Below are positions 35,181 through 59,068 of a DNA stretch of 64,000 nt, in pieces. The position numbers and the translations under genes were made by a program. The stretch covers positions 86,683,741 through 86,747,740 of the forward strand of contig CM041465.1 of the NCBI GenBank assembly GCA_023213395.1. Reading direction: 5' to 3'. The stretch comes from Cycas panzhihuaensis (taxonomy: Eukaryota; Plantae; Cycadophyta). The notes beneath the pieces are model-generated. The model was not told the origin of the DNA. It searched no databases and saw only the letters and a list, made by a program, of their open reading frames with translations. Each line of letters opens with the position of its first letter. Within the stretch, counting starts at the first letter, position 1.

Positions 35181-35193
35181 TGGTATCATAGCC
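35181..35193 (+). other. Degenerate tRNA-iMet PBS at the right end of the virus array
   Basis: TGGTATCATAGCC, one mismatch to 23043-23055, same upstream TTAGTG context. Confidence 0.85.
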
Positions 35194-36275
35194 TGACAAG
35201 GCGAACCAAATACTTCGTAAATACCACAATGGCATTTGTGGGGGGGCACTTTAGGGGCCAATATATGGCCTAGAGGATCCTTTGCATGGGTTACTATTGG
35301 CCGTCCCTTTTCAAGGATGCCCATGCTTATGCTTTGCCATGCCATAAGTGTTAGGAACATGCCAACATCATCCATTCGCCTTCTGAGACCCTATACCTTA
35401 TTATCTCTCTGTGGTCGTTTTCCTAATGGGGATTAGACCTCATCGGGGCCATAACCCCTTCTTGTTCGTCACAGCACAAGTTTATCTTAACTATAATGGA
35501 ATATTGCACTAATTGAGCTGAAGCAGTCCCTTTGTCTTCCACTTCTAGTAAAACTATAGCTACCTTCATCTACCAGCATATTATCTGTCGATTTAGGGTC
35601 CCTGATATCTTGATCACAGATAATGGAACTCCCTTTTGTAATAAGGAAATGGATGAGCTTTATGGAAAGTTTAGAATATCCTATAAGACTTCTTCTCCCT
35701 ATTTCCCTTGATCTAATGGCCAAATCGAGTCCTTCAACAAGACTCTTATAAATATTCTAAAGAAAATTGTTGCCCAATCCTAAAGGGATTGGCACCTTCA
35801 ACTTCCCTCTGCTTTACGGGCATATCACACTTCCATTCGCATGGCCACAGGGATGACCCCATTCTCCCTTGTGTATGGAAACGAGGCAGTCCTTCCCTTG
35901 GAAGTTAAAATTCCCTCCTTGCGTGTCTCCCTTCAAGGTCTTATTGACGAGGAGTCCTATCGCTAGGCCTGCCTCCTTGACTTTAAAGCTTTAGACGAGA
36001 GATGTTTGATTGCATATCTAGCGAATCTCACCTCCAAGGCTAAGGTGTGAAGAACATATGATAAACGTCTTTACCCTCACCCTTTGCATCTCGGGGACCA
36101 CATCCTCAAGCTAGAATACCTCTATGATTGCCTGCCTAAATTCGAACTTAAATAAGTTGATCCTTTCGTCATTCTCAAAAGTCTCAACAATGACACTTAT
36201 AGGATTACAACTCTAGAGGGTCTTGAGTTTGAGAAGGCCATTAATGGTAAATTCTTAAAGAAATTCTATGTGTGA
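35194..36275 (+). pseudogene. pol: Integrase remnant of element 2
   Basis: HNGICGG, ITDNGTPF, VYGNEAVLPLEV, INGKFLKKFYV-stop; colinear with 350-1420. Confidence 0.9.
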
Positions 36276-36280
36276 CCTTC

Positions 36281-39200
36281 TGGAATCGCACCTCTGGGGG
36301 GGTCACTTAACTTGAGTGAGGTCAAGCCAACACTACTAATGGCTTGGGTGACTATGGACCTCTAAGAATAAGAAAAATAGGTCACCTACAAAGGGCATCC
36401 GTGCATCGCAACACAAGTTCAAGGACCCGCTAATGGCGCACAAACTCCTTTCGGAAAACTCCTCCTCAATTTGGAATAATGGGTGAAAGAGGGATATTCT
36501 CAATTTCTTAAGTAACCTCAAAAGGGGGCCCTCCCGTCTTGGATGGCCGGAGGAGGGGAGGAAGGAAGCGAGGGAATACCTCCTTGTATGAAGAGGTAAC
36601 GAAGGAAATGACCCTTAGCAAAAAGGAGGAGAAACTCACATGCAAGCCTAAAGACAACTTACAACGCAAGTAGGCAAGAGAGCGACTGGTCCCACAAACT
36701 AAATGCCGACCAAAGGACGAGACCTAAGAGGTCTAGCTTGGGGAAACGAAGAAAGAAGAAAAAAAACATCCTTGAGAGGAGGTACTCTCAAAGCACAATA
36801 CCTAAGGAGGTTCTAGGTATGAAGGGTTAACAAAGGGTATTGTCTTATATTTGTCTTTTTTTTGTTATGTGATAGAGAGATATAAAATAGGAATATCGTG
36901 CTTATGTATGCAAAAAATGACTTTAAAAGAAAACAATGTATTCTTCCTCTCTCTCTAGATGTAACCTCGCTCTCTTTATTCTTTCATATGCAAGGAAAGA
37001 AAGAAAGCAAATTACTAAGTAGGTAAAAAGTTTAAGCAAGAGATGTAAAGCTATTTCGTGATATGCAATAAGGGGAAAAGAGTGTGTATGGATGAGTGCC
37101 TACCCACCTTGCCTTAGCTTTGGTAAGGGTGAAGGCTCTTATGAAAAGAGTAAATAAGTGGATGTGTGTGTGTCAAAAGAGAAGGGAAGCACCTACCAGT
37201 GCGGGGTTGACTAAATCCCCAACTATATGAAATTAAATGGGCAAGCAAGAAACAACCAGTAAAGTGTAAAACAACGTAATCCTTTTCTTTTCCTTTTGTC
37301 TAGGGGTATACAAGAAAAGGGGAGTAAAGGATAAGAGTAGGAAGACTAGGGAGAGAGATGTACTCAAAAATATGACGATCGGGGTAGCACTAACCTCACC
37401 ACTTTCGCAATCCTTGCCCTTCCCCTTGTCGCAGGTGGCACAATGGAAAGAATGCTAGTGAAAAGGAGGGGCTTCCTTACCTTCTCCCAAAACCAAAACA
37501 AAAGGAAAATATGAAGGAAGGAAATGGAAACACTAAAATGACTTTACTTTGTGTTTTTTTAAAGTGCCGAAAAAGTAACTGCTAAGTGAAGGAGGAGCTT
37601 ACCTGGGATGAAGATACCTGCTTACTCCAAAGGGGGACCCAACGCATGCTGGGATAAGTATGTGTAAGGAAATATGGCAAAACGTGTATATCTATTTTGA
37701 AAGAAAAAGCATTCTACATTAATACTTTTCCTTGTTTTGTATATACAATTAATTGTGTGATGTGGGAAGAGGGGTGAAAAGGAGAAAAGTGGGTAGCCTC
37801 GGGATGGCTAACCCTCCAAATCTAAAGTACTCCATTCTATCCCCAAGCACCAAGATAAAGGGTAAAGAGAGTGAAACAACCTAATAACAAGTGTGAATAG
37901 GTTTCTATGAAAGTAGACAAAAGCGGTAAAAGGGATTACAAATGTTGCAAAAGTTGCAAAGTGCAACTTCTGCAGGTTTTTACAAGAACTAACCCTTGAG
38001 CTAAAGAGGTATTATATAGGGCCAGAAACTAGGATATGTAGGATCTTCGATGGCCGGTTGCAAACACAGCAAAAGGCTACCTACGCTGCCATAAGCAAAG
38101 ATCTTCTCTTCAATGGTTCTCTGAGAAATTAAGGGAGGTATGGAGAAGAAGAGGGGAGGAGAGAAGGGGGCTGCCCTTAAGGAGAAGGCATTTTAGGTGC
38201 AAGACCCTATCTATGGCTCCTTTCGCTCTCCATATAACCCTCTTCCCTACTGCCTCCTTGAAGAACCCAAAGAGAGCCAAGAGAGGGTATGTGGACAGGC
38301 CAACAAGAGGGAAGGTTTACCTCCTGATACGATAGAGAAAAGAAGAAAGAAACTTACTACAAGAAGCACTAGTGGAAGAGTACCTATGCTATTCAAAAGG
38401 GAAATCAAAGGACTAATCTGAGAGTACCTGGTAAAGGCAGATCTACCTAGTAAATTGGGTGAAGAAGAGGGTCCTTTACAGTTTGCTGGAGGAAACCCTT
38501 GTAGTGTAGCAAATGGAAAATAAAACCTTGAGCAAAAGGAGACTTGGAGCTTGGTGAGGCGTTTAGAGTGCAATCCTTCTTCAACCAGTGTTATTGCAGA
38601 CTTGCAACCTGCATTTCCTGAGCTGCAAGGGGTTGGTAGTTTGGTTGTCAGTCAAGTGCAACAAAGCTTGAGTCTGTTATAGGGCATTTTTGGAGAAGAG
38701 AGTAGTGAAAAATGGATGAGAAGAGACCAAAATGAAGTAAATTTTGGGTTTTTAAACCTAACCCTAGCTCAACGAGCGATTAGGGTTCGCCTTAGGCGGG
38801 AGTCAAGTCACTGCCACATGGTAATTTCCCAATAAATATGAAATTAACCGTGGCTAATTTTAAAAAAAAAGTTATGAACAGTCACCCTACGATAAACTTA
38901 GTAGTACCATGAAGTTTGCAATAGTACCGCAAAGTTTACTGCGATGCAGGCAAAAGTAAGGTAAAAAGAAGAGTAGGGGAGCCCAAAAGCTCCCAAAAAG
39001 GGGGGAAATCCTAAACCATAAGGGGCATGCTACAGTATCCAGGTAGCAAGGAGGTTATGAGACCTAGCAGGACCACAACAAGCAGGAAATTAATGGTCAA
39101 AGACTCCCAAAAAGTGACAAAATGCATACATGAGGTGACGACCAGGTCTAAGCGAAATGCTAGGGGCTATGTCATACCAATAGACAACGTAATAAGGGCT

Positions 39201-39479
39201 ACAGGAGCCAGCGGTGCTCGGGGACATCATGGAGATACGTGGAGGGTTGTGGAGCACCATGGGATATGTATCCCAGATCGTCATAGGCTAAAAGGATGCT
39301 GAGATGCAATATGGTTAGGCAAACAATGCATAGTGATCATGTAGTCAACCCATCAGAATGCAATATAAGTAACATGCCTTGATCGACCATTTCAGGGACT
39401 GACAAACGAGAAAGATAAAAGCATACCTAAACTTACCTAAGTTGAGTCGCCCATGTCCATTCTAAGTAGTTGAAAAACA
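36281..39479 (-). repeat. 3' LTR of element 3
   Basis: Direct repeat of 51857-55097; preceded on the minus strand by PPT AAGGGGGCAG (39480-39489). Confidence 0.94.
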
Positions 39480-39973
39480 CTGCCCCCTTGGTAGCAGAGC
39501 CTCATTGCTTGGAAGTGTAACACGATGGCAAATGTTGGCAACACAAAGATTAATAATATACAATAAACATAATAGTGTCATCAACCAAGGGTGACGGCAA
39601 GTGTCATGGCAGAACGCGTGGATAGGGAGAAGAGCGGGGCAACATAGGGGTTGCCTATGCATCGCCCTAGAATCTAATAATAGAAAGGGTGGATGAGGAG
39701 GATGCCCCCATCACATGTATGCAAGATGAATGGTGGTGATAGTCATGAATATGATCAATCAAATATTACGAATGAAATATATGTATATATGAGAGTTAAA
39801 GTGATGGGAGCTTCGTATCGGGGGTGGTACGAAGGATAGAGTAAATGGCATAAAACTGATGGTCACCATAGTTTAACCTCATTAGTGGCCAGCTTTTGAA
39901 GGTGCGAATGGATCGCAAGATGGAGGATGGAACGATCTCGAACCAAGGTGCCTGGACAACACGATAAGGTTCC

Positions 39974-40395
39974 TCAAGGGGGATCATCGATGAGAGGAAG
40001 ACGATGCTTAAGGATGAGATGGACAAGGCCGTCTGCCTTAGCATTATGGTCTCAGGGAATGTCTCAGATATCTACAGAAGAAAAATGAGACAAGAGAGAC
40101 CTAGCGGTTGAGACAAGGGCTCTCAAGCGTGGGCAACACACCTGGTAAACTTGGGTGAGATGCAACATAATGACCTGAGAGTCACAAAGCAAGATGATGG
40201 GACTATGGTGGAAATGGAGCGCATCAGTAAGGACTTCAAAATGGTTATGTACTCAGCTTCATTATTGGTGGCTTCGAGAAGGAAGACGCCAAAATGCATG
40301 AAGTCGTATCTGAAGAAGTCATGGAGGATCCACATGGCAGGGGAAGGGTCTGGGTTACCATGACTTCCTCCATTGGTGAAGATGAGCAATGTCAT
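39974..40395 (-). pseudogene. Free-standing archaeal-type RNase H (aRH) of element 3
   Basis: LIFTNGGSHGNPDP..EATNNEAEY..IP*DHNAKADGL, matching the DGxSxGNPG / TNNxAEY / HIPRxxNxxADxL pattern. Confidence 0.85.
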
Positions 40396-41690
40396 AGTGA
40401 GGAGTTGAGAGTTCCGTCAAACGATGGAAAAAAAAAATGACAATGGGGTCGATAAGCAAAGAAAGGTGTAAGAGGTAGCAATAGGATTACAAAAGACTTA
40501 GAAGGCAGTGAGTAAGGAACACGAAGGATGAGAGAGTCCTAAAAAGAGGCTACCTAGAGGCGAGGGGATTGACCTAATGAAAGGGAAGGAAATAGCAACG
40601 AAAAAGCCCCTTCAAGGTCCCAAAGGTTGCTAAAAGGGCCAAAGTGAGGTCTTGAATAGGGAGGCGCTTCCTTTATGAGCCCCAAAGGCTCAGACGAACA
40701 GCAAAAATGGATTCAAGGTGGAGAAACGAGCCAAATGAGTATAAACATAAATATGTTTTGGAGTGGTATAAAAATCAAGATGGAAGAGGTCTGCGAGAGA
40801 CTGAAGGAGTCATCATAAATGCGCCATAAAGGCTTAAAACGGAGACCACAGAGGCGAAATAGGGGATGGGCACAAAAGGCAAAAATAATGTGGGTGAAAG
40901 GATGGTCGTAAGGGTTGTTGCAATAAAAGAAAAGAAGAAAGTGCCTGTTGGGGCCCCAGCATATATAAAGGAAAACAGGTGAAAACAAAGTTCATTTTCA
41001 CAGGCTCACGATCGATCTGGAGCCCTTTCCTTACACAGTGGAGCACTACCTGATTCAGAGGCATGCAACAAGAGATCTGATCTTTGGATCAAGGAGCAGA
41101 GACAACCGATACGACCAGAACGACAAGATGGTGGTGGCCAAGCTAGATCCAATGAGTGGATCGCCCCCTACCCTTTCCATTTTGTCAATTGAATTTAATG
41201 GATTTTTATGCTTTTAGAAGTAGTTTTTGGCCCTTTAAGGGTGATTTGGCACCCTCTAGAGCCTGATTTGGGCCCAAAGAGCGAGGGGGCTAGGGCATTA
41301 GGTAGCCTCGGTCCCATTGGGCCTAGCTTTGGCCCACTTAAACAAAAAATTTAGATTTTTGGGGCATCCCCTCCTATTTTGCGAGGGTTATGAAGGGCCC
41401 CACGACAAAGATCGTGGTGCCGCAGAGTTTGCCGCGGGGCCACTGAGGTGATGCTAAAACCTCAGCGGGGCTTGTATCAAACTCCGCGATATCACAGAGT
41501 TTAACACAAGGCAGAGGAACATAAGGACAGAAAGAAGAAAGAGGGCCCAGGGAGGTGCTAAACTTAGCTCGAAAGGGCATGAGGTAACTAGAGAGCAACT
41601 AAGCATAACATGGAGTGTTTTGATTGACTCTTGGGTGGGTTTTTATAGGCAGTTATCGTAGTGGACAATTGTGAGAACATAGGAGTCACC

Positions 41691-44202
41691 ATGATGAGCT
41701 TCATAGAGATGATGTCACGAGGAGATAGACAGACATTGGGGCGATGTGGGTTATTGAAGATCATCAGGACCCTATAGCATGTGTCGGATCAACACCTCCT
41801 GGTGGATATAGTCTCCTATTGGGATCACAGGCGGTATGTCTTCCACCTTCCCCAGGTGGGAGACATCACTATAACACTAAGAGACATCAGGAGGATCCTA
41901 GGAGTACTGGCAGGAGGAGTGCTAGCATCACTAGGGACACTACCTAGTATGGATGTTGTACACACGGAGGCGGCCATATACTTCATTGGCAAGGGCAGGT
42001 GGGAGTGGCGAGGGATATCATTCCAGATGATGGTGATGTCATAGATTCCTCAAGTGAGGAAACTTATTACATTGGACATTTTGTTCTGAATTGCCTGGAA
42101 ATAGAATTACAGGAACATACCTAGTGGATGGATGGGCACGGTTAGGAGGTGTGAGGCTAAGAAGAGATTGGATTGGGCCGCCTTGATAGCGATGAACATG
42201 GTCGCATAACTTGATGCTATCAGGGTGGTAGGGAGAGGAGGAGTTTCCTATTGTACTCTATTGCAGTGATGGTTTTTCAATCATTTTGGGGCAGTAGCAC
42301 CACCAGGAGGACCTCACCCTATCTCAACACGGGCCCCCATGGTGCACAGGTGACAGACTTAGTTTAGGGGGACTGAGGACAAGGTACATATTATTAGGTA
42401 ATGTGATAGCAATGGTTTGGAGGCTAAAATTTTGACAGGTTGGTAGCACAATCTCCCCCCCAAACCTTCCTCAAGGGGTTTCAAGGTGGGCGGGAGCCCC
42501 CCTTGGCCAAGGCGATGCAAGGGGCATGGAACGCCCCCCGCAAAGAGGGGGTTCGGGGGTGATAGCCCCCGACCCAAAAGTCTAGCACTGAAAAGTATAT
42601 TAAATTGTAAAGAGAATCAGGGTTGTTTGCTCAAAATACCCTAGATTCTATGGTCGATATTTGTGCCTTGTATGACTCTCTCATGTAGCCCGATTTAGGG
42701 CATTTTTCATCATGTTGATAGTGTTCAATATACTGTGAGGAGTTGGGCAGCTGATTGTTGTTGCTGTGAGCACATTACTGCAGATTATGTACATTTTCTC
42801 TATTCTTTGACAATAAAGATCGATACCTTTCCTGTGTGTATATTTCCCTAGCATACTGCTAGGGTTTTACCACGTTATATCAGGTGTATATATGTTGCTT
42901 ATCTTTCTTGTTTATTTTATTGTTGTATCTCTGGTTTAAGAACTTACATGTTAAATTTTAGTTTCGATTCATGTAACTAGTTGCAAGAATAGTTTAGATC
43001 TTGGTGGCGGTTTAAGGGTTGGGACCTTATCTTCTCAACACATATTAGGCAATCGGTGGAGGTGACATTGCTAGACCTCCTCACTCTGGCAGACTACATA
43101 ACATATCCATATAGAGGAGTGCGTTGGGATAGCGATGATGAAGCAGGAGGGTTAGGTGGCAGTCTTGGAGATGGAGGTGACGATGATGGCGGTGATGGGG
43201 CAAGCCCATCAGAAGTAGCAGGTCCGTCAGGAGCTACAGGAGGAGAGGCAGGTCCCTCAAGGGTTGTAGGAGGTGATAGACCACCCCGCACACTAGCACA
43301 AAGATTGAGGGTGGTAGGCAGAGCTCTGGTGGCGGTAGCGATAGAGAGAGGAGGAGACATCTCGGCAGGCCAGGAGGTAAGTGAGGTGGTACCCAAGGCT
43401 AGGGAGGAGGTACCATTAGTCGAGGGAGGTCCCATAGAGGAGGTGGTCATCTACGTCGAGGAGTCAGCCTTCCCAAGAGGTGAGACACTACATTTTCCTA
43501 ACATCTTTCAACCACTAGGCACTTAGATAGCTTGCTTTAATTTAGTTTTGAGATTTTGATATATGGATGCATAGATTAACATATGGTATGTGATTTGGCA
43601 GGAGCAGCGAAGATGGTGAGATTGGTGGAGGTGATAGTCCATGAGGTATTCCCTTAGGTCTACGTGGAGGAATAACCTCCCATCCAGGTTAGAGAGGAGC
43701 CTCAATCGGTGGGGACACACATAACGACATTCGCTCCACTGATTAGGGCCAGGGATATATGGGTAGTGGAGTCCCAGGAGCACCAGGCAAGGGTAGGACA
43801 GCTACAGAGGGAGTTGGACAAGATCTATGTAAAGAGGGACCAGGAAGTCACAGAGAGAGACACTTTATGAAGCTGGGTCCAGGTATTAGAGACCCAAGGA
43901 GGAGGAGTAGTGGGCAGCAATGCAGAGAGTCGTATCAGGATAGTCGTGCTAGAGGAGAGGCTCCGAGGAATGGAGGGGGAGAGGGATCATATCCAGACAT
44001 GATACGATCAATTGGTGGACTAGATGGTTGCGAGGTCGTCGCAGAGCAGGACTCAAACTCATATAACAGCAACGATCTCAAAGAGACCCCAAGACGAGGG
44101 GAGTAAGGCAGGGAGCTCATAGCGGCGACAGAGGAGCTTAGGAGGTATGTGGTCTCCTGGGGAGGGGTCACGCTAACCAATAAATGATACCCCTTAAGAG
44201 TA
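41691..44202 (+). pseudogene. Antisense extra ORF of element 3: Plant Mobile Domain (aminotransferase-like) + Gly/acidic linker + coiled-coil exon
   Basis: DQHLLVDIVSYWDHRRYVFHLPQVGDITITLRDIRRILG fits the PMD motif W..FHLP.GE.TITL.DV..ILG; interrupted by the 42392-43040 insertion; putative intron 43480-43601. Confidence 0.78.
42392..43040. mobile_element. Solo LTR (649 bp, probably Ty1/Copia-type) inserted in the PMD gene
   Basis: T(A)TTAG...TCAACA termini, TSD CATAT (42387-42391 and 43041-43045); absent from the element-2 copy at ~57070. Confidence 0.8.
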
Positions 44203-45004
44203 GGGGTGCTGAAGAGTAGCACATGATTAGTTTTGATTGAGAAAGCACTAGACCTCCAGGGAGCCATCATACGTTGCCATATGATTGTACTCCTCCCTAC
44301 AAGGATTCCAGCTTCTCGAGGATGATGTACTATATTGTTTTATATGATATAATTCATTATGTATATAAACGGAGGCCCATTGGCACCCCATTTGATCCAT
44401 GATGATGATGTTATGATGCTTTTATGATGTTGCATTTATTATTTATTTGTTCATATGTTTATATATATGCATATTTATGTGTATATAGAGACAGGTGCAT
44501 GAGAGACTACGCACCATGATGATATTAGTTGATTGTTATATAGTTTCTGTTATTGGATTCTCTGAGTGATGCCCACACTTTCTTTCATGTAGGACCACAC
44601 TCGTAGTGGGCACACATGACCACCATGAACGTAGGTGATAGATACATGTGAGGCTAGGAGATGGAGAGCCATACATGTCCATCGAAAGAGCATAGCGGGT
44701 ATGCAAAGGAAGCGACGACAAAGAAAGAGTACCGATACTCAAGCGTGCAGTCCTAGTCGAGGTGCGATTTTGAGCTCGAGAGCGATGGAAACATTCGTGT
44801 CTAATTAGGAAGAAAGGTTTCCCACAGGAGAGAAACAAAATGTGCCATATATAAGAACTACAAAGATAGGAAAGCCACCCTAAGCCACCATTCCACCCAT
44901 AGTTGGGAGAATGGGGACACGCTTAGAGGGGTAGTTTAAGCTTATTTCGGAGCAAGAAGAAAGAAGCAGTGCACCAAGCCTACACAGGGGTAGGGACAGG
45001 TCAC

Positions 45005-48000
45005 ATGTGGAATTTCTTTAGGAACCTACCATTGATGGCTTTCTCAAATTTAAGACCCTCCAAGGCTGCGATCCTATAGGCACCGTTATCAAGGCTTTCG
45101 AGAACGACAAAAAGACCAACCTACTTAGGTTCAAATTTGGACAAACAATCATGGAGATATTCCAACTTGAGGATATGGTCCCCAGGATGCAAAGGGTGGG
45201 GGCGAAGGCATTTTTCGTACATCCTTTGTGCCCTAGCTTTAAAGGCAAGGTTTGCTTGGTAAGCAGTCTAACATTTCTTATCTAGGGCTTCGAGATCTAG
45301 GAGACGAGCCTAACAATAGGACTCCTCATCAACAAGACCCCGAAGGGAAACTCGCAAGGATAGGATTTCAACTTCCAATGGGAGGACCGCCTCAATTCTA
45401 TACACAAGGAAGAACGAGGTCATCCCTGTAGCTTTGTGGATAGAAGTACGATACGCCCACAGGGCAAAAGGAAGTTGAAGATGCCAATCCTTTTGAGATT
45501 GGGCAACGGTTTTCTTTAGGATGCTTATAAGGGTTTTGTTAAAAGATTCTATTTAGCCATTGGCCTGGGGGTAATAGGGAGAAGAAGTTTTGTGAGATAT
45601 CTTAAATTTCTCGCAAAGTTTGTCCATTTCCTTATTACAAAAAAGGGTTTCGTTATCCATGACCAAGACGTCAGGGACCACGAATCGATAAATAATATGC
45701 TTATAGATTAAGGTGACCATCGTCTTGCCAGAAGTAGAGGATAAAGGGATTGCTTCGGCCCATTTAGTAAAGTATTCCATCGCAGTCAAGATAAACTTGT
45801 TATGGTCCCAATGAGGTCTAATCCCCATTGAGAGAAAGGCCATGGAGACATAACTGGGTGCAAGGCCTCGGAAGGCAAGTGGATGATGTTGGCATGCTCT
45901 TGACACCGATGACATCGCAGGGCATAGGCGTGGACATCCTTAAAGTGGGATAGCCAATAATAGCCCATGTGAAGGATCCTTTGGGCCATGGATTGGCCTC
46001 TAAAATTGCCCCCGCAAATGCCGCTATGGAATTTGCAAAGTATTTGGCCCGCCTCATCAGGACTAACACGGTGGAGAAGGATCATGTCGAAAGACCTCTT
46101 GTGCAATACCTCTTCCATGAGGAACTACTACCTGGCATTAGCCCAAATACATGACCTAACCTTATTACTTGTATCGAGGCGATACTGCTACTCTATAAGA
46201 TATCGTACAATATCCCCATACCACTCACTATCAGTCAATAAGTGAGGAGACGAGTCCTAAATAGTGAGAACAGGCTCGTCAAGCAAGGAATCATCAACAA
46301 GAGCATTAGAAAAGTTTAGGATGGAGACGTCAGCAAGTTATTCGGCAACCACCATCCCCTTATTTGATTTCTTGTTAACGATTTGGAGATCAAATTTTGA
46401 ACGAGCATGGCCCACTTATCAGTCCTACCTGTCAGGTCGGATCGAATTAGCAAATACCTCAAGGGATCAGATTGAATGATCACTCGAGTAATGTTTCTAA
46501 GCAAGTAGTACCTAAACTTCTTGGTAGTGTGCACCAAGGAGAGGCATTCCTTCTCGGCGACAGAGTAATTAAGCTCAGTAGCAACTAGGGTGTGGCTGAT
46601 GAAGTAGATGGCTCTCTTGTTTCTTGAGTCATCCTCTTGGGCAAGCATGGCACCTAAGGATTCATCAATGGATGAGGTATAAAGGATGAAAGGCCTATCG
46701 AAGAGAGGGGGTGCCAAAGCTAGGGCGGAAGCCAGTGCTCTCTTGAGTTCCTTGAAGGCGTCCTCGGCCTTCAGAGACCAAACAAATGGGATCCCTCTCT
46801 TCAATAGGTTGGTGAGGGGTTTTGCGCTTATGGCGAAGTTCGCCAAGAAACACCTAAGGAAGCCTAATCTACTTAAGAATGACTTGATTTATCATTGGGT
46901 CTTAGGAGGAGGCATGTCTAGGATGGCCTTGACTTTGTGAGGGTCGATTTGGATTCCTTGTTTCGAAACAAAGAAACCAAGGAGTTTGCTAGCCAATACG
47001 GTAAACACACACTTAAGAGGATTTAGGCTTACATGGTATTTGCGACATCATATGAAGATGGCTCACAAATCGCTAAGATGGTGGGCCCTTACGCGCAAAA
47101 GGACCATCATGTCGTCCATAAAAACCTCAAGGGTTTTGTTAATGAGGTTGTGAAAGTCAAATTGCATCACCTTTTGATAAGTGGTACCTACATTTTTAAG
47201 CCTAAAGGGCATCTCCTTGTAGGCGAAGGTGCCCCAAGGAGTGGTAAAGGCCATTTTTTGACTGTTTAGGGGAGATTTAGATTTGGTTTTATCCTAAGAA
47301 GTCGTCCATTAAGCACATGACTTTAAATCTAGTCATTTGATCAATGATCTAATCGATGAAGGGGAGAGGAAAGTTAACCTTAGGACATGCATTATTGATG
47401 TCACGAAAGTCAATGCATATCCTAATCGTTCAGTTCTTTTTAGCAATAGGAACAATGTTAAACACCCACTTGGGGTAGTCGATGGAAGTGATTAACCTTG
47501 CGTCTTAGAGTTCCTCAACTTCCATCTTCACAACGGCTTGAAGTTTTGGGTGAAGAGGGCATTGTTTTTGCCACATGGGGTGAATGCCTAGAATAGTAGT
47601 GAGGTTATGTGTGACAATAGAAGGGTCTATTCTCTTCATGTTAGAGTAGTCCCATGTAAAAATGTCACGAAATTCTTGGAAGAGAAGGGTATATTCATTC
47701 ATTTCGTCATGGGAACATTCCGCTCCCACCTTAATGACCTTACCGGGAGCAAGGACAATATCCTTGGTCGCCCCCATACACATGGCATTCCCTTCCTCAA
47801 AGTGGAGGGAGGCTCGGTCAACAGGAGGGGGTGAAGAAGAAGAAGATAGGTTTGGGTCAACTAAAGGTGATCCAATGGCTAAGATCTTCTGGTGACCAAG
47901 TTTATGGTGACCAGAGAGGAGATTGGGTATGGAACCCATTAAGTGCTCTAGTAAGCCTCGTCATCCTCGAAGCAATCTATCCTATGGATGATCACACTTC

Positions 48001-51000
48001 AAGAAGATGAGGGGCGAGGAGCAGAAGGAGTAGTGGGACCGTAGCGGTCAACCCACCACTCAATGTACTCAAGGGACTCTTTAGAAGAGTTGGAAGACGA
48101 CCTCTTGTGATAGGTAATAAGAGGTTCCCTTGCCTCATCACTTGTGGAGGGTGATGAAGTAGAAGATCAGGTGATATAGGAGATTGCATGAGAGATAGGA
48201 GCAATGATATGTGAATCGGGAGGAGGACTAGACTCTTTGATGGAAGAGGCTTCAAGTTGGGACCTGAAACAAAAAGAGTGCCCCCTACTCATATTTAGGA
48301 GGGATATGGGATGAGGGAGGTCCCCATCCTCGCCGTCAGACTCGTCGTCATTAAGCACAGTGAGGTACCCATAGCTCCCTACACCAATAGGGGCGAAGCA
48401 GATAAGGTTCGAGGAAGAAGGGGAATGACCTTCTTCCAGGTAAGGCAAACCAGGAATGTCGATAGAACAAGCAGAAGCATGGGCAGAAGGGCCCTTATCG
48501 CCCTTCGCCTTGTCGCAAACCACTTGACGAAGTTGACATGGTTGTTTGGTAGGAGGAGGTTCCCAGGGGACAACCCTCATTCGTCCCTTATGGATGAATT
48601 TAAGTTGCCCCCAACGGGACAAGCACACAACTCCCATTTGGTCAAGCCATAGTCATCTCAATAAGAGGTTGTAGTCCACGTCTACATCAAGGACTACAAT
48701 ATCAGTGAGGATAGTTTTGTCCTCGAGAGTGAGGGGAATAGAAACTGACCCTAAGGGTGTCTTTTCGCTACCATTGTAGCCTTGACACTGCCATGGGACC
48801 GATTCAAGGGCTGATATGCCAAGCTCTTGCATGATGCACAAGAGCATAGTATTAACAGAAGAACCATTATCTATAACAGTCCTTCAAAAGGTGTATTCGG
48901 GTGTGTCTATGGTTATGGTGAAGGGGTAGTACCATTAATGTTCCCTTTCACGAACTGAGGGAAGATCCTTAGGATCAAAAGAGATGACGGGTTTACGGCT
49001 TAGGGTAACACCCAAGGTGTGAACTGAAGCATTAACCAATCCTAAGGTTTCTAGGAGAAGAGCACACTACTCTAAACAGAATATCAAGACATCTATCATG
49101 GACATCCCCGTGGCTACGGTGTGAAGCTTATTAACGATGGAGAAGGGCTTCCCCTTCACGGTAGGTTGGGGAAGTGCCCTTCAGAAATTGTAATGACTGG
49201 GGAACACGAGAATGGTCTTAGGAAGTGTGGGAATTTCTAGAGGAGGGACTTCCAGAGGAGGATCAAGATAAGGGGTGGAAGAAGAAGCATCGGTGGCTTC
49301 TTTCGTTGCTTGGGAAGTCAAGGCATATGACAGGGTGGTCTCAAGCATTTAAATGACTCTTTTTCCCTTGTTTCAAGATCGAGAGGGGGAAAGAGTCCAG
49401 TGGTTGGGAGAACTAGAAGAAGAGGAAGAGTTCCTAATACCTTTCCTTTTAACTTGTGTAGGGTGAGGGTTGGGAGACCTTCCTCTGTTTTGGTTGCCTT
49501 TTGGTTAGGTGTTGCAATCGCATTCCCCATGTTTGGGGAAAGGATCCTTATAGACGGGTTGGTTTAGATTGGGTCTAGATGCTTGTTTAGGGGAAGAGTC
49601 GCATTATGGGGTAGCCTTAGGGTGTTGGGCCTTACATTACGAGTCTTCGTGAAAGCATTCCTCATGAATAGAACACCACTTCTTCTCTAAGGGAAAATGT
49701 CTTCCTTGTTTGAGAAGGCTGGGTATTATCACCCTTGGGAGGTGCAGCTTCAGAGTCTTGATGGACAGGTCTGTGAGAAGTGGGTGATGAAGGGGCTTAG
49801 AGTTTAAGCTCCTTCATGGTATGTTCAAAAGAATGTATAGTGGAGGTCAAGAGGTCTAAGGTCTTCTCTGTCAGATGAGACGAAGACCTAGGAGGCTATT
49901 GAACTTTGATATCGCGGGGCAGAGGAGGTGCCTCACGCCATTGTGAGGACCTAAGAGGCTTCTTGAGACCTGCCTAGATCTCAATGGCCTCAAGAGCCAA
50001 ACACTTGGCTATGGTGGAGTCGCACGTTATCACTCTTATTTTGAGGACTTTAATGTGGACTTCAGGGTGAAGGGCATTAACTAAGAGATCTCTCTTTAAC
50101 TCCTTAGGTAAGGTTGCCTTTATGGAGTGGAGAAGATCATGGAAGCATCTCACAAAGTCATGATTCATCTCATCGTGATCTTGTTTAAGAGACAGGAGAG
50201 CCTTTATTCTGCTCTCGAAGGGACGAGCTACGTCAAAATAATTGATGAATGCATCAATGAGTTGTTGGAATGAGTAGATAGAGTGCACTGGAATATGATA
50301 GAACCATTTAGGGGCATCACCTTAGAGAGAGCGTGGGAAGAGTTTCATTAGGATATGGTTATATGCCCAATAATCGATACACACATTGGAAAAACTTCTA
50401 ACATACTATGTTGGGTCTTGCGAAGAGGTCCCATCGAATTTAGGTACCTCGAGAGGGTGAGGCGGTAAGTTGATTCTTAGTGCCTCGATAGATAAAGGAG
50501 TTGATCTATAATCCATGAAGGAGCATGCCCTTGATTGGACCATAGGGTCAACAAAAGATGGAAGAGGAGGTGGGTAAGGTTGCTTGAATCCTCCTTGCGA
50601 GACTTGGTTCGGAAGGGGATACACACTTCCTCCCATTTGATGGGAGGGAACAAATCCCGCATTCAAAGGAATTGGAAGAGGAGTGGACGGGTGCGAGGGA
50701 CCTATCCCTCCTTAAGGATACGCCCCTTGCTGAAAGGGGATATGAGAGGGGGCACCTTGGGAGGGAGCTTGCCCTCCATGCGAAGGCGCCACATAAGAAG
50801 GAGCGTAAGATGGGGGAATAGAAGGGTGCAGAATCGAATTTTACTCATATGGGTTGCCTATAGGTGGTGCGATGCCATACAGATGCAAAAGATCCACTCC
50901 ATAAATAAGAAGGAGATTCCCTTTACTGTGCCCCCACGATTGGGAAGTATAACCCGGGGGCATGTAAATGGAAAGATCCCTCAGTTGAGCTTGGGTATGC

Positions 51001-51710
51001 GTGGGGATCGATCCCACGCAGCTAGATGTAGGGGCATATGTGGGTCCCCTATATCTAATGGGAGGAGGATAAACTACAGTCGGTTGGGGCGTAGTTATTT
51101 AGCTAGAGGGAGGCATACTCAACTGGATTTAGGAAGAGGATATACCTTGGGTGGTCCTTAAGGAACATGGATCACAAAGAGGAGAAGATGAAACGAGGGA
51201 TATCCTCATTGTAGGTAAGAAGAAAGTGCTATGCTTCGTAGAATATTATCCAACCACTTAGGATGTGATTAGAGGCTAGTGACTTAGAAGCATTGGTTAA
51301 GTGCTTCCACCACAACATTCGCGGAGGGGTATCTGCCTGATCATATGTGGTGGAAGGGTCCTCATATGAGGTAGACCCCACGAGGCAGTCCTAATGAGAA
51401 TCGCCACCAAAGTGGTGGTACTCTAAGGGAGAAGATGCCTCCACCTCATGAGTGGAGAGGTGGTGGATTTGTGGGTACTCTTAATCACCCGAGTAGAAGA
51501 CAGGGTCCTCACCCTCTTGGGCAGGCCTTTGGAAAGAAGTGGATGGTTGATGGGACTTGGACGCATAGGTGTGATATGCCCAATCTGAAGGAAATCCTTC
51601 CATGGTTGATTTAGAATCCGACGATGGAAGAGGATGGTAAGGGGAGTCTTCCAACAAAGGGGGAAGGCCTTGTAGACGACAGGAGAATTGTTGCGTACAA
51701 GTTCCACCTA
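45005..51710 (-). pseudogene. gag-pol: gag-pol of element 3 (gag, protease, RT, RNase H, integrase)
   Basis: EVPKFDG..LFPRSL..KWF (gag), VIDNGSSVN (~48860), ICIDFRDIN, AFTTPWGTFAYKEMPF, VFMDDM, ELNYSVAEKECL, HSGICGG..CHRC, WPFSQWGLDLIG, SSPYYPQANG; the 5' boundary is approximate. Confidence 0.93.
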
Positions 51711-51833
51711 AAGATTAGAAGAAAAAGGAGATGGTGAGGTCATAAGCATTGGGGACTGCCCAACAAATCAAGGAGAGCTACCAAAAAGGAGGTAACACCA
51801 ACAGATCAGGGAGAAGGACTAATCCCTTACTAG

Positions 51834-51855
51834 CGAGTCCCTAATACGGTCACCA
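51834..51855 (-). other. Candidate PBS of element 3
   Basis: TGGTGACCGTATTAGGGACTCG, 1 nt after the 5' LTR; its complement resembles a tRNA 3' end (CGAGTCCC...CCA); tRNA identity not determined. Confidence 0.7.
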
Positions 51856-51856
51856 G

Positions 51857-54800
51857 TGGAATCACACCCATGGGGGGGGTCACTTAACTTGAGTGAGGTG
51901 AAGCCAACACTACTAACGACTTGGGTGACTATGGACCTACATGAACAAGGAAAAGAGGTCACCCACAAAGGGCATCTGTGCGTTGGAACATAGGTTCGAG
52001 AACTCGGTAATGGTACACAAACTCCTTTCGGAAAACTCCTCCTCGATTTGGAGTAACAGGTGAAAGAGTGATCTCCTTGGTTTCCTAAGTAAACCTTGGA
52101 AGGGGGCACTCTCATCCTGGATGGCCGGAGAAGGGCAGGAAGGAAGCGAGCGAATACCTCCTCACGTGAAGTGGTAACGAAGGAAATGACCCTTAACAGA
52201 AAGAGGGAGAAACTCACGTGCAAGCCTAAGGCGGCTTGCAACATGAGTAGACAAGAGAGCAACTAGTCTCACAAATTAAGCGTCGACCAAAGGACGAGAC
52301 CTAAGAGGTCTAACTCGAGGAAACAAAGAAAGAAGGAAAAAAACACCCTTGAGAGGAGGTCCTCTCAAAGCACAATACCTAAGGAGGTTCTAGGTATGAA
52401 GGATTAATAAAGGGTGTTGTCTTATGTTTGTCTTTCTTTTGTTGTGTGATAAAGAGATATGAAATGGAAATGCCGTGCTTGTGTATGCAAGAAATGACTT
52501 TAAAAGAAAACAATATATTCTTCCTCTCTCTCTCTAGATGCAACCTCGCTCTCTTTATTCTTTCATATGCAAGGAAAGAAAGCAAGCAAATTGCTAAGTA
52601 GGTAAAAAGCTGAAGCAAGAGATGCAAAGCTATTTCGTGATATGCAATAAGGGGACAAGAGCGTGTACGGATAAGTGCATGCCTGCCTTACCTTAGCTTT
52701 GGTAAGGGTGAAGGCTCTTCTGAAAGGAGTAAATAAGTCGATGTGTGTATGTCAAAAGAGAAGGCAAGCACCTACCGATGCGAGCTAACTAAATCCCCAA
52801 CTATATGAATTTAAATGGGCAAGCAAGAAACAACCAATAAAGTATAAAACAATATAATCCTTTTCTTTTCCTTTTGTCTAGGGGTATACAAGAAAAGAGG
52901 AGTAAAGGATAACAGTAGGAAGACTAGGGAGAGAGACGTACCCAGAAATCCAACAGTCGGGGTAGCGCTACCCTCACCACTTTTGTAATCCTTGCCCTTC
53001 CCCTTACTGCGGGTGGTGTAACGAAAAGGATGTTGGCAAAAAGGAGGGGGCTTCCTTACCTTCCCCCAAAATCGAAACAAAAGGAATATGCAAAGAAAGG
53101 AAATGGAAACACTAAAATGACTTTACTTTGCAATTTTTTAAAGTGCCGGAAAAGTAACTGCTAAGTGAAAGAGGAGCATACCTGGGATGAAGATCCTCGC
53201 TTACTCTGAACGTAAGGAAACTTGAACAAACAAAGCTCGCCCTTTCCCAAGGGGCACCCAATGCATGCGAGGATAAGTATGTGCAAGGAAATATGGCAAA
53301 ACGTGTGTATCTCTTTTAAAAGGAAAAGCATTCAACATTAATACTATTCCTTGTTTTGCATGTACAATCAATTGTGTGATGTGGGAAGGGGGGGTGAAAA
53401 GGAGAAAAGTGGGTAGGCTCAGGATGGTTAATCCCCCAAATCTGAAATGCTCCATGCTATCCCCAAGTACCAAGACAAAGGATAAAGAGAGTGAAACAAC
53501 CTAATAACAAGTGCGAACAAGTTTTTGTGAAAGCAAACAAAAACGGTAAAGGGGTTACAAAAGTTGTAAAGTGTAACTTCTGCAGGTTTTTGTAAGAACT
53601 AACCCTTGAGCTAAGGAGGTATACTATAGGGCCAGAAACCAGGCTGTATAGGATCTTTGATGGTCAGTTACAAACGCAGCAATAGGCTGCCTACGCTGCC
53701 ACCAGCAAAGATCTTCTCCTCAATGATTCTCCAAGAAATCAAGGGAGGTATGGAGAAGGAGAGGGGAGGAGAGAAGAGGGCTGCCCTTGAGGAGAAGGCA
53801 TGTTGGGTGCAGGACCCTGCCTATGGCTCCTTTCGCTCTCTGTATAACCCTCTTCTCTACTGCCTTCTTGAAGAACCCAAAGAGAGACAAGAGAGGGGAC
53901 GTAAACATGCCAACAAGAGGGGGGGTTCGCCTCTCGATACAATAGAGAAAAGAAGAAAGAAACTTACTGCAAGAAGCACTAGTGGAAGAGTACCTATGCT
54001 ATTCAAAAAGGAAATCAAAAGATTGATCTAAGAGTACCTAGTAAAGGCAAAACTGAAGCAGATCTACCTGGCAAATCAGGTGAAGAAGAGGGTCCTTTGG
54101 GGTTTGCTGGAGGAAACCCTTCTAGTGCAGCAAATGGAGAAGAAAACCTTGAGCAAAAGGAGACCTAAAGCTTGGTGAGACGATTGGAGTGCAATCCTTC
54201 TTCAGCCAGCCTTATTGCAAACCTGCAACCTGCATTTCTTGAGCTGTAAGTAGGTAGTGGATTGTCGATCCAAAAGTGCAGAGCTTGAGTCTGTTATAGG
54301 GCATTTTTTGGAGAAGAGAGTAGTAAAAAATGGATAAAAATAGACCAAAATGAAGTGAATTTTGGGTTTTTAAACCCAACCCTAACTCAACGAGCGATTA
54401 GGATTCGCCCTGGGCAGGAGTCATGTCACTGCCACGTGGCAATTTTGCAAATAATACGAAATTAGTCATGAGTAGTTTAAAAGAAAAAGTTATAAACAGT
54501 TGCCCTATGGTAAACTTAATGGTACCGTGAAGTTTGCAGTGGTACCATGAAGTTTACCACGGTGTGGACAAAAGTAAGGTAAAAAGAAGAGTGGGAGAGC
54601 CCGGAAGTTCCTAAAAAGGGGCGAAATCCTAGACCCTAAGGGGCATGCTGCAGTATCCAGGTTGCAAGGAGGTTATGAGACTTAGGGGGACCACAACAAG
54701 TAGAAAATTGATGGTCAAAGACTCCTAAAAAGTGACAAAAGGCATACACGGGGTGACGACTAGGCCTAGCCGAGATGCTAGGAGCTATGTCATACCAATA

Positions 54801-55097
54801 GATGACGTAATAAGGGCTGCAGGAGCCAGCGATACTCAGGGACATCATGGAGACGCACGGAGGTTTGTGGCACACCATGGGATATGTATCTCGGATCGTC
54901 ATAGGCTAAAAAGATGCTGAGATGCAATATAGTCAGCCAAACAATGCATAGTGATCATGTAGTCAACCCATCATAATGCAATGCAAGTAACATACCTCGG
55001 TCGACCATTTCCGGGACTGACAAAAGCGAAAGATAGAAGCATACCTGAACTTACCTGAGTCGAGTCGCCCATGTCTATTCCCGGTAGTCGAGAAACA
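51857..55097 (-). repeat. 5' LTR of element 3
   Basis: Direct repeat of 36281-39479, followed on the minus strand by PBS and gag. Confidence 0.94.
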
Positions 55098-55859
55098 CCT
55101 TCCCTACTCCCAAACAGATTAGGCATACCCCCTTCCCCTCTCACTCTGAAATGAGCCTAAACTACCGCTCTAAGCGTGTCCCCATTCCCCCTAGTCACGG
55201 ATGGCAGCTAAGAGTGGCCCTTTCTTTACAGTTCCATTGCTTGTATTGCGTCTTTTGTTTTTGCTTTTGGGGAAAACCTCTCTCTTCCTAGTTGGGTGTG
55301 CAAACTTTCCTCGCTTCCAAGCCTAGAATTGCACCCCAATTAAGGCCTTTTGCTTGAGTATCTATATTCCTCCTTTGGCATTATTTCCTTTGCATATCTG
55401 TTATGCTCCTTCGATGGACATGCATAGCTCTCCCTCTCCTAGCCTCATATGTACCTATTACTGATACACATGGTGGCCGTGTGTGTCCGCTACGAGTGTG
55501 GTGTTACATGAAAAGAAACACGAGTCTCATCCATACATGATCTAAATAAACACCATAATGCATAATCCCTCGTGCACATGTGCACCCATATTTGCATGCA
55601 TCTATCTCTCCATGCATGTATGCATAAACAAATAAACAATACAATAGAACCATAATACCATCATCATAGGTTAAATAGGATACCAATTGGCTCTCATCTA
55701 TATACACAAAAATCATATCATACAAGGTCATATAGTACATCATCTTAGCATCATGCCTTAAGAAGCTGAAACCCTTGCAAGGAGGAGTACAATCATATAC
55801 CTACATATGGTGTGACTCCCTGGAGGTCCAGTGCTTTCCTGTCCAAAAATAATAATACA

Positions 55860-57765: not shown

Positions 57766-59068
57766 GACCACTCTGATGTTCTTGCGGCTGTCCACCATGA
57801 TAACCGCTTATAAGCAATCCAAATGTCGGTCTAAAATACCCCTTACTGCATGTCCCACTGTCCATCGAATGCCTCATACTCCATTAGAGTGAGCTAAGTC
57901 ATCCATCGGGCCCCAATTCTTTTTTTTTCCACTATCCTTTCACTACTCTACATTAAACTCTACGGTACTGTAGAGTTTGACACAGGCCCCGCTGAGATTT
58001 TGACACCCCCTTTGTGACCTCACAGAAAACTTTGCGACACTGTGATCTTTGTCGCGGGGCCATTGTTTCCCCCCAAAAAGGGGGGGGGGGGCATGCCCTA
58101 AAAACCATAAAATTTCAGTCTAAGTTGGTGAAGGCCTAGTCCACTGGGACCAGGGCTACCTAATGCCTTGGCCCTCCCCCTCTCTAGGCCTCATTTAGGC
58201 TCCATAAGCTCCCAAATTGCCCTTAAAGGGCCAAAACTAAGCTACAAAAACTTTAAAAAATCATCAAATAAAAGCAACGAAATGAGAGGGGTAAGGAATG
58301 ATCCACTCATTAGATCGGGCCTCGCTACTGCCATCTCGTCATCTTGATCACGTAGGCTGTCTCCACGCCTCAATCCAATGGCTAGATCCCCTACAAAGTG
58401 CTCCCAAAATTTGGCAAGGCTCTGTTGCATAGAAGAAAGGGCTCCAGATCGATCATGGGGCTCATGAAAATGAATTCCATTTTCACTCCCCTTTCTTTAT
58501 ATATGCAGGGGTCCCTAGGGGCACTTTCTCCGTTTCATTTACCACAACAGCCTTCGAAACTATCTCCTTGGCTGCATCGTCTTTGTCTTTAGGGTCCATC
58601 CATTATTTTGCTTCTGTAGCCCCAGTTTCAAGCTCTTTTGTTGTATTTATGACGACCCCTTCAATCTCTTGCAAACCCCTTCTGCCTCGTTTTTTGCACT
58701 ACCCTAAAACATATCTATGTTTATACTCTTTTGACTCATTTCGACATTCTAGATCCATTTTTACTACCCGTTCAAGCCTTTGAGGCTCTCAAAGGAAGCG
58801 CCTTCCCCTTTTCTGGATCTCCTTTGGCCCTTTTAGTGACCTTTGGGAGCCCCAAATAGGCTTTTTCATTATCATCTCCCTGCCTCTTCGTCGAGTCAGT
58901 TTCCTTGAGCTCGGTAGCCTCTTCTCATGATTCCCATGTCCTTTTATAGTCCATATTCATAGCATCCTAAGTGATTATAGCCTTGTCGGTGCACTTTCTC
59001 CCCTCTTCACTCTTTGACCTTATCATCACTATTTCTCTCGTCGTTCGATGCAAACCTTATTTTTCACC

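What the first reader, a model, noticed from the sequence alone, without database searches (positions are those of the whole stretch)
39974..44202. Divergent two-gene accessory cassette in Tat elements: antisense PMD gene back-to-back with a free-standing archaeal RNase H
Seen in elements 3 and 2 (55860-59491): downstream of the pol stop lies an antisense PMD/coiled-coil gene, then ~1.3 kb of non-coding DNA, then a sense ~140-codon aRH with its own ATG, ending ~500 nt before the PPT. The pol RH runs straight into integrase with no aRH. Known: Tat-clade elements carry aRH, in Ogre/Retand between RH and INT within the polyprotein, with position varying in basal Tat lineages; PMD eORFs occur in some Tat/Ogre and Mutator elements, and the host PMD proteins MAIN/MAIL1 act in TE silencing. 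Inference: here aRH sits ~4 kb past the pol stop and must be expressed separately, perhaps from a bidirectional promoter shared with PMD, possibly as an R-loop/chromatin counter-silencing module.
Basis: partly seen in the sequence, partly recalled or inferred. Interest (0 to 1): 0.8.

Follow-up and report, generated by a model that had tools for sequence, protein, structure and literature searches.

The report
Gymnosperm retrotransposon with detached RNase H
Two decayed copies of a plant jumping element carry their RNA-removing enzyme as a separate small gene facing away from a second accessory gene, a layout that matches an already described conifer, cycad and ginkgo lineage; the enzyme likely stands in for the element's own worn-out one during copying.

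Summary
In two old, nested Ty3/gypsy Tat copies (about 69% identical), pol ends at its normal stop. An antisense PMD/coiled-coil gene with a conserved intron follows, then 1.26 kb of non-coding DNA, then a 140-codon archaeal-type RNase H (aRH) with its own ATG, about 480 nt before the PPT. aRH and the PMD region show codon-position constraint; the spacer shows none. Both copies are now pseudogenes.

The parts are known. Gymnosperm TatIII (structure #3, 'post-integrase') is defined by aRH after integrase, reported as a separate ORF, with an antisense PMD ORF. The aRH here falls in its own clade among cellular-type RNases HI, as reported for TatIII. I found no text stating that PMD lies between integrase and aRH; the papers' figures were not visible.

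Most likely, aRH is made separately and supplies RNase H activity to an RT whose native RH lacks its first catalytic Asp. A shared promoter rests on one two-way TATA that is no better conserved than its surroundings. The R-loop counter-silencing idea has no direct support.

The parts
36281..55098 (-). Element 3: full-length Tat (TatIII-type) LTR retrotransposon, inserted just after the pol stop of element 2
   Evidence: LTR pair, TG..CA ends, 5-bp TSD CCTTC at 36276-36280 and 55099-55103
51857..55098 (-). 5' LTR of element 3
   Evidence: 85% identical to the 3' LTR; K2P 0.147 over 3184 sites
51838..51855 (-). Primer-binding-site-like sequence beginning TGG, one base after the 5' LTR
   Evidence: sequence; tRNA type not tested
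50091..50345 (-). gag capsid domain (decayed)
   Evidence: Pfam Retrotrans_gag E 2e-5
46973..47251 (-). RT core (part matched by Pfam)
   Evidence: RVT_1 E 4.4e-8
46397..46780 (-). Native RNase H, tether-like: first catalytic Asp replaced by Ser; runs into integrase with no aRH
   Evidence: RT_RNaseH_2 E 1.9e-25; alignment to Ty3 RT 4OL8
45001..46060 (-). Integrase ending at the natural pol stop (45001-45003)
   Evidence: rve E 4.4e-10, Integrase_H2C2 E 3.1e-5; same C-terminus and stop in 3 of 3 elements
41655..42389 (+). PMD coding region of the antisense gene (8 premature stops in 245 codons)
   Evidence: Pfam PMD E 1.9e-5, below cut-off; third-position excess p=8e-11; translation
42409..43046 (.). 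Secondary insertion of about 640 bp in element 3's PMD gene, absent from element 2, flanked by a short duplication
   Evidence: pairwise alignment, flanks; highest-depth part in run X1
43047..43479 (+). Acidic/Gly-rich linker of the PMD gene, in frame with the PMD region once the insertion is set aside
   Evidence: translation and periodicity p=6e-4
43480..43601 (+). Predicted GT-AG intron of the PMD gene (122 nt); same sites in element 2 at 56605-56480
   Evidence: donor and acceptor conserved in 2 of 2 copies, frame continuous across it, no periodicity inside
43602..44197 (+). Last exon, with a coiled-coil-like stretch (judged by eye)
   Evidence: 50% amino-acid identity to element 2 and 53% to the element 1 remnant; third-position test p=0.1
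40396..41654 (.). Non-coding spacer between the two divergent genes
   Evidence: no codon periodicity on either strand; 66% identity between copies
40961..40969 (.). TATA-like motif readable on both strands; also in element 2 at about 58496-58504
   Evidence: motif scan; not more conserved than chance; 4.7% of simulations show one
39974..40395 (-). Free-standing archaeal-type RNase H of element 3 (one frameshift near 40240, one internal stop)
   Evidence: RVT_3 23.2 bits; tblastn to element 2 aRH in two frames
39481..39490 (-). Polypurine tract
   Evidence: sequence abutting the 3' LTR
36281..39480 (-). 3' LTR of element 3
35192..36275 (+). Element 2 integrase and pol stop
   Evidence: blastn and tblastn; stop
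55884..57803 (-). Element 2 antisense PMD/coiled-coil gene (decayed)
   Evidence: Pfam PMD E 0.0099; tblastn
59069..59491 (+). Element 2 free-standing aRH, single frame, one internal stop
   Evidence: RVT_3 47.3 bits, E 2.5e-12; PDB archaeal-type RNase H1 4E19 E 5e-14
59961..63167 (+). Element 2 PPT and 3' LTR (right end approximate)
   Evidence: similarity to element 3 LTR ends
1..5685 (+). Element 1: related Tat copy with INT, only the 3' remnant of the PMD gene (2170-2478), no aRH, then PPT and LTR (2821-5685)
   Evidence: deletion junction with short microhomology

Best explanation
These are decayed copies of a Tat retrotransposon with the layout of the gymnosperm TatIII lineage, in which the archaeal-type RNase H sits outside pol as its own gene and likely supplies, as a separate protein, the RNase H activity that reverse transcription needs because the native RH has lost its first catalytic Asp. 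Shown: the layout, the natural pol stop, the conserved aRH start codon, past purifying selection on aRH and PMD, and the degenerate native RH. Inferred: aRH was translated from a short sense transcript starting in the spacer and ending at the 3' LTR terminator, and had to reach the particle or RT in trans. Also inferred: the PMD gene was transcribed antisense from the same spacer and spliced. Its intron survives copying because it lies on the strand opposite the genomic RNA. The PMD protein is probably a nuclear regulator of the element, like other antisense ORFs of Tat elements; nothing here ties its job to that of aRH.
For: pol ends with the same C-terminus and stop in 3 of 3 elements, about 4 kb before aRH, with an antisense gene and in-frame stops between. 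The aRH Met aligns in 2 of 2 window copies and 3 of 3 close database relatives (P0124, P0125, P0167; 50-63% identical). Those 3 of 3 relatives carry the first catalytic Asp, as does one contig of the same species (loose end). dN/dS of aRH is 0.21 (CI 0.10-0.37), against 0.44-0.77 in 15 non-coding frames and 0.54-0.60 in 3 LTR frames. Native RH has Ser where Ty3 RT has the catalytic Asp; native RH is degraded in all aRH-bearing Tat structures (PMC10508981). The aRH tree puts the 6 free-standing sequences in one clade (99/99) among cellular-type RNases HI, apart from 22 in-Pol aRH domains (100/100), as reported for lineage III (PMC4408406). An antisense accessory gene with its own promoter is documented for maize Grande (PMC7264820).
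Against: No transcript, start site or protein was seen; the only run listed may be DNA and holds contigs only. Both window copies lack the first catalytic Asp (Ser, Asn), one X1 contig appears to lack it too, and both have a stop at the catalytic Arg position. CpG decay (about 0.5-0.6 per site per copy, from the LTR pair) can explain this but was not proven. How a free 140-residue protein would be packaged is unexplained. Several ATGs lie between the TATA and the aRH start (4 in element 3, 5 in element 2). No labelled TatIII RT was available, so membership rests on layout and the aRH tree; the test of one clade for free plus in-Pol aRH was not rejected (p-AU 0.066). Only one native RH copy is in the window.
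Confidence: 0.6

Rival explanations
1. aRH has no promoter of its own. It is expressed from the LTR-driven RNA, by splicing to a subgenomic message (as for env-like ORFs) or by internal initiation in the pyrimidine-rich leader; the spacer TATA serves only the PMD gene. The enzyme's role would still be in reverse transcription.
For: The TATA fits the PMD direction at least as well (TATATAAA with an initiator-like motif about 30 nt on). The aRH leader is 68-70% pyrimidine and has upstream ATGs. Splicing to a 3' sense ORF is reported for barley Bagy2 (PMC7264820).
Against: No AG lies within 89 nt of the aRH ATG in either copy. None of the 15 joints shown for run X1 (5 more were not shown) links pol to aRH, though that run may be DNA.
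Confidence: 0.2
2. The first reader's module: PMD and aRH are co-expressed from one bidirectional promoter and act together in the nucleus, aRH clearing R-loops and PMD opposing silencing at the element.
For: Head-to-head layout kept in 2 of 2 copies that are about 31% diverged; two-way TATA in both; both genes lost together in element 1. Host PMD-C proteins act on silencing and oppose Polycomb (PMC5418596 passages; bioRxiv 10.1101/2024.09.27.615353 abstract).
Against: The TATA window (21/24) is within the shuffle null for the best window (20-24), and 4.7% of simulated spacers have such a motif. Antisense PMD genes persist in angiosperm Tat lineages where aRH is inside Pol (PMC4408406), so the two are not obligately paired. 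Gypsy PMDs (PMD-A) are a different clade from MAIN/MAIL1. A dead native RH already demands a replicative role for aRH. The joint loss in element 1 is one deletion with microhomology.
Confidence: 0.13
3. aRH is really the C-terminus of Pol (as drawn in 2015), reached by read-through, frameshift or an in-frame splice; the gap is an artefact of decay.
For: Ustyantsev 2015 places lineage III aRH at the C-terminus of a putative Pol; a 2026 paper calls the point controversial.
Against: Natural pol stop in 3 of 3 elements, about 4 kb with a whole antisense gene between, in-frame stops and no periodicity upstream of the ATG, and a conserved Met in 5 of 5 family sequences.
Confidence: 0.04
4. aRH is a captured passenger with no function in the element.
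For: Element 1 lacks it; both window copies are broken.
Against: dN/dS 0.21 and third-position excess p=1.7e-4; family members in independent datasets; the structure is reported across Pinaceae, Cycas and Ginkgo.
Confidence: 0.03

Closest known systems
TatIII (Neumann 2019) = lineage III (Ustyantsev 2015) = structure #3 'post-integrase', clusters Tat H and I (Biryukov and Ustyantsev 2023; Plants 2026)
   Same: aRH after INT and reported as a separate ORF; antisense PMD eORF in the 3' region; degenerate native RH; 5-bp TSD; aRH in its own clade near cellular RNases HI.
   Different: The texts read do not say that PMD lies between INT and aRH, head to head with it; the 2015 text implies INT-aRH in Pol and then PMD. 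They report no coiled coil and no intron for lineage III PMD. Element 3 (18.8 kb, 3.2-kb LTRs) is longer than the reported 12.7-17.3 kb.
Ogre (Tat lineages IV/V) and Retand
   Same: Long pol-to-3'LTR region with antisense ORFs; PMD plus coiled coil antisense at the 3' end in lineage V; tether-like native RH.
   Different: aRH is inside Pol between RH and INT; angiosperm-wide; Retand has TRP28 rather than PMD.
Structure #4 'pre-capsid' Tat (mosses, one Selaginella)
   Same: aRH as a separate ORF outside pol.
   Different: It lies upstream of gag; no PMD pairing is described in the passages read.
Maize Grande gene23
   Same: Antisense accessory gene in the 3' internal region with its own promoter; nuclear protein.
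   Different: Different protein; no divergent sense RNase H gene described.
Archaeal-type RNase HI (PDB 4E19, 3U3G, 3HST, 2EHG)
   Same: Same fold family and motif layout; E 5e-14 to 3.7e-4.
   Different: Cellular enzymes; here the gene rides in a retrotransposon and the window copies are broken.

Membership tests
Tat clade (Ty3/gypsy, OTA) | gag-PR-RT-RH-INT order between LTRs | tested here: met
   (gag, RT, RH, INT); protease motif seen by eye in the translation; LTRs
Tat clade (Ty3/gypsy, OTA) | additional archaeal-type RNase H | tested here: met
   RVT_3 above cut-off in 2 of 2 copies; PDB hits
Tat clade (Ty3/gypsy, OTA) | native RH degenerate in its catalytic core | tested here: met
   Ser at the first catalytic Asp vs Ty3 RT; one copy only
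TatIII / structure #3 | aRH downstream of INT, not between PR-RT or RH-INT | tested here: met
TatIII / structure #3 | antisense PMD eORF in the 3' region | tested here: met
   Pfam PMD E 1.9e-5 and 0.0099, both under the cut-off; selection signal
TatIII / structure #3 | aRH in its own clade, apart from in-Pol aRH, near prokaryotic RNases HI | tested here: met
   (99/99 and 100/100); no named TatIII reference in the tree; p-AU 0.066 for the alternative; the 'prokaryotic' label is my assumption for unnamed proteins
TatIII / structure #3 | RT/INT phylogeny in clusters H or I | tested here: inconclusive
   INT tree groups element 1 with one unnamed 74% relative and with unnamed RH-INT proteins lacking aRH; the best named hit is Cryptomeria at 45%; no labelled TatIII references available
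TatIII / structure #3 | 5-bp TSD | tested here: met
   CCTTC on both sides of element 3; 92% of TatIII
TatIII / structure #3 | PBS for tRNA-Arg or tRNA-His | not tested
   PBS-like sequence present but not compared with tRNAs
TatIII / structure #3 | length 12.7-17.3 kb (observed range, not a strict criterion) | tested here: not met
   18,818 bp, about 18.2 kb without the insertion, owing to 3.2-kb LTRs; internal part about 11.7 kb
TatIII / structure #3 | host in Pinaceae, Cycas or Ginkgo | not testable with these tools
   no genome held; organism coded
Ogre / Retand | aRH between RH and INT inside Pol | tested here: not met
   tblastn of an aRH-INT protein skips the aRH part at that place
TatI / TatII (structure #2) | aRH between PR and RT | tested here: not met
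   no RVT_3 hit in the 3 frames of 47899-51800 or the 3 frames of 44399-48000

The most novel reading that the evidence does not exclude
TatIII elements replicate with a two-part reverse transcriptase: RT with a dead tether RH from pol, plus a free RNase H subunit made from an internal promoter that fires both ways and also drives the spliced antisense PMD regulator. That would be a detachable, trans-acting RNase H that deletion derivatives such as element 1 can borrow, and the head-to-head order would be the true, so far unstated, anatomy of the lineage.
Probability: 0.25. Interest if true: 0.65.

Novelty: new member of a known kind. Interest (0 to 1): 0.3.

Why it matters
The literature leaves two points open for this lineage: whether aRH is part of Pol or a separate ORF (called controversial in PMC13468544), and how it could work from a separate ORF (asked in PMC10508981). 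These copies argue clearly for a separate, selected gene with a conserved start. They also point to a defined 1.26-kb spacer where its promoter can be tested. If aRH works in trans, it is a natural example of an RNase H subunit detached from its RT, a possible stage in the evolution of the retrovirus-like dual RNase H. The lineage itself is already described, and these particular copies are dead.

Tried and rejected
No genome was held, so copy-wide statistics could not be done; selection rests on one pair of copies.

Word-based protein searches found nothing for aRH (5 candidates, 0 hits) or for PMD among longer proteins (1096 candidates, 0 hits); both queries are decayed. The viral-contig scan with an INT region gave no relative. 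The metagenome scan returned 80 loci at 30-40% identity, which I took to be cellular RNase HI genes from their identity and did not examine; it gave no plant context.

Sequencing runs: no RNA holder was listed. The one run of the same species label may be DNA and holds contigs only, so it says nothing on strand, start sites or splicing. It does show related copies across the cassette, including one 536-nt contig covering 58913-59391 (leader plus aRH).

Cluster look-ups gave no names for 6 of 6 proteins. Earlier-findings look-ups returned nothing.

Rejected: hidden coding sequence in the spacer (no periodicity); special conservation of the TATA region; a Pol-aRH fusion; an ancestrally inactive aRH (3 of 3 relatives have the first Asp), though not excluded for this sub-branch. 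No structure or complex prediction was run: only broken copies or stand-ins from unknown hosts were available.
Full report
Setting. Self-comparison of the window shows three related LTR elements and a block of 6-kb repeats. Element 3 lies on the minus strand at 36281-55098. Its 3.2-kb LTRs are 85% identical (K2P 0.147), with TG..CA ends and a CCTTC target duplication. It inserted right after the pol stop of element 2 (plus strand), whose 3' half resumes at 55104. Element 1 occupies 1-5685. No genome was held.

The observation. Pfam on 18 translated frames finds gag, RT, RH and integrase in element 3, with no RVT_3 hit in any of the 6 gag-pol frames. RVT_3 hits the small ORFs at 40395-39974 (23.2 bits) and 59069-59491 (47.3 bits), cut-off 21.6. 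PMD hits the opposite strand in both copies but under its cut-off of 34.9 (24.5 bits, E 1.9e-5; 15.5 bits, E 0.0099). pol ends in the same C-terminal motif and stop in 3 of 3 elements. The aRH ATG lies about 4.0 kb further on in element 2, and 4.6 kb in element 3, which carries an insertion of about 640 bp. aRH ends 470-485 nt before the PPT. The best solved relatives are 6 archaeal-type RNases HI, led by 4E19 at E 5e-14.

Were these real genes? Both copies are broken: element 3 has 8 stops in 245 PMD codons and a frameshift in aRH, and both aRH copies have one internal stop. Their ancestors were constrained, though. Differences between the copies fall at third positions in aRH (59/140 vs 68/279, p=1.7e-4), PMD (114/244 vs 112/488, p=8e-11) and the linker (p=6e-4). 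They do not in the coiled-coil exon (p=0.1), the intron (0.3), the region after the gene (0.5) or the spacer halves (0.69, 0.21). dN/dS for aRH is 0.21 (CI 0.10-0.37). The same method gives 0.44-0.77 in 15 non-coding frames and 0.54-0.60 in 3 LTR frames, so the neutral baseline is about 0.55, not 1. The PMD gene has a GT-AG intron at the same place in both copies (43480-43601; 56605-56480), with the frame continuous across it. An intron on the strand opposite the genomic RNA would survive reverse transcription, which fits a separately transcribed antisense gene (inference).

Is aRH free-standing and was it active? A search of 1.84 billion representatives gave three close, partial relatives (P0124, P0125, P0167; 50-63% identical). 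All 3 have Met at the same position and Asp at the first catalytic site; two more distant short proteins (P0133, P0230) join them in a tree. The window copies read Ser and Asn at that site. In run X1, one contig appears to read Asn and another Asp. The site is in CpG context, and CpG decay in the LTR pair is about 0.5-0.6 per copy (28 kept in both, 53 changed in one, 20 changed oppositely), so decay is the simplest reading. An inactive sub-branch is not excluded. Upstream of the ATG are in-frame stops and no AG within 89 nt. The native RH has Ser where Ty3 RT has its first catalytic Asp (one copy only).

Trees. In a 50-row aRH tree (22 of the 26 in-Pol domains found, leaving out P0002, P0004, P0038 and P0110; 22 unnamed hits that I took as prokaryotic; 6 free-standing), the free-standing group is one clade (99/99) among the cellular-type proteins and apart from in-Pol aRH (100/100). 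Forcing free and in-Pol together was not rejected (p-AU 0.066). In a 75-row INT tree (74 of 120 hits long enough), element 1 pairs with an unnamed 74% relative and, at 95/85, with unnamed proteins whose RH runs into INT without aRH. The grouping with Cryptomeria is weak (82/56). No labelled TatIII sequence was available.

The promoter. One TATA-like motif reads on both strands in both copies (40961-40969; about 58496-58504), some 570 nt from the aRH start and 690 nt from the PMD region. Its window is 21/24 identical, inside the shuffle null for the best window (20-24), and 4.7% of 2000 simulated spacers contain such a motif. There are 4-5 ATGs between it and aRH. It is a lead only. No expression data were obtained.

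What is known. Ustyantsev 2015 (PMC4408406; abstract, parts 1-2 of 6 of the body, passages, supplement legends and table rows) describes gymnosperm lineage III with aRH after INT, an antisense PMD eORF at the 3' end, and aRH in its own clade with a bacterial enzyme. It places aRH at the end of a putative Pol. Neumann 2019 (PMC6317226; passages and one supplement table) defines TatIII by aRH after INT: 5-bp TSD in 92%, 12.7-17.3 kb, reverse 3' eORF in 18%. [quoted passage not shown] Their text says 'upstream of pol', but their table lists INT.aRH. A 2026 paper (PMC13468544; passages) calls it 'post-integrase, solo aRH' and notes the dispute. Antisense ORFs with their own promoter are known in Grande (PMC7264820 passages; PMC11963269 passages). 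Gypsy PMDs form a clade distinct from MAIN/MAIL1 (PMC5418596 passages); host PMD-C proteins oppose Polycomb (bioRxiv 10.1101/2024.09.27.615353, abstract only). Seven searches gave no text stating that PMD lies between INT and aRH, or proposing a shared promoter. The structure figures of these papers, image-only supplements, the large REXdb files and subscription papers such as Steinbauerova 2011 were not seen and may show it.

Mechanism. An LTR retrotransposon needs RNase H for strand transfer and PPT priming (stated in PMC4408406). With the native domain degenerate, the selected aRH is the only candidate in the element, so a replicative role in trans is most likely (0.6, including an internal promoter). 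Expression from a spliced or internally initiated LTR transcript is the main rival (0.2). The joint counter-silencing module gets 0.13, because PMD and aRH are decoupled in angiosperm Tat lineages and nothing here shows co-expression. Element 1 lacks aRH and most of the PMD gene through one deletion with a short microhomology; whether it moved in that state cannot be told.

Verdict. The feature is real and well supported. It most likely belongs to the described TatIII lineage. The added details (gene order, PMD intron, conserved aRH start, selection) bear on a small acknowledged open question. Interest 0.3.

Noticed in passing
window 5686-9288 and 12053-35180: Tandem and inverted copies of about 6 kb, 86-90% identical, of an endogenous caulimovirid-like sequence: movement protein (E 3e-4), caulimovirus coat domain (E 1e-4), zinc knuckle, RT and RNase H. 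Copies are broken by stops and frameshifts.
   Followed up: partly
window 9289-12052: Solo LTR of the element 1 family inserted in the caulimovirid-like array, with a near-perfect 5-bp flanking duplication.
   Followed up: partly
window 42409-43046: Insertion of about 640 bp in element 3's PMD gene, with TG..CA-like ends and a roughly 12-bp flanking duplication, longer than an LTR element's usual 5 bp; single copy in the window but the highest-depth stretch in run X1.
   Followed up: partly
window 2478-2479: Element 1 has a deletion of about 3.4 kb that removes the PMD domain, the spacer and aRH together, joined at a short microhomology. A contig in run X1 skips 42388-44241, a different internal part.
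   Followed up: partly
window 36273-36280: Element 3 inserted within 5 bases of element 2's pol stop codon, on the opposite strand.
   Followed up: no
window 44230-44330 (also about 2040-2120 and 55760-55850): A stretch just past the PMD gene's stop is 78% identical between elements 2 and 3 and recognisable in element 1, although apparently non-coding; it could be a terminator or RNA signal.
   Followed up: no
window 41129-41157: An ATG followed by about ten codons is kept on the PMD strand in both copies, 160 nt past the TATA; it could be a first exon of the PMD gene, whose open frame begins right after a splice-acceptor-like site near 41648.
   Followed up: no
proteins P0133 and P0230: Two short unnamed RNases H from environmental assemblies form the sister group of this aRH family; they may come from TatIII elements of another gymnosperm.
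   Followed up: partly
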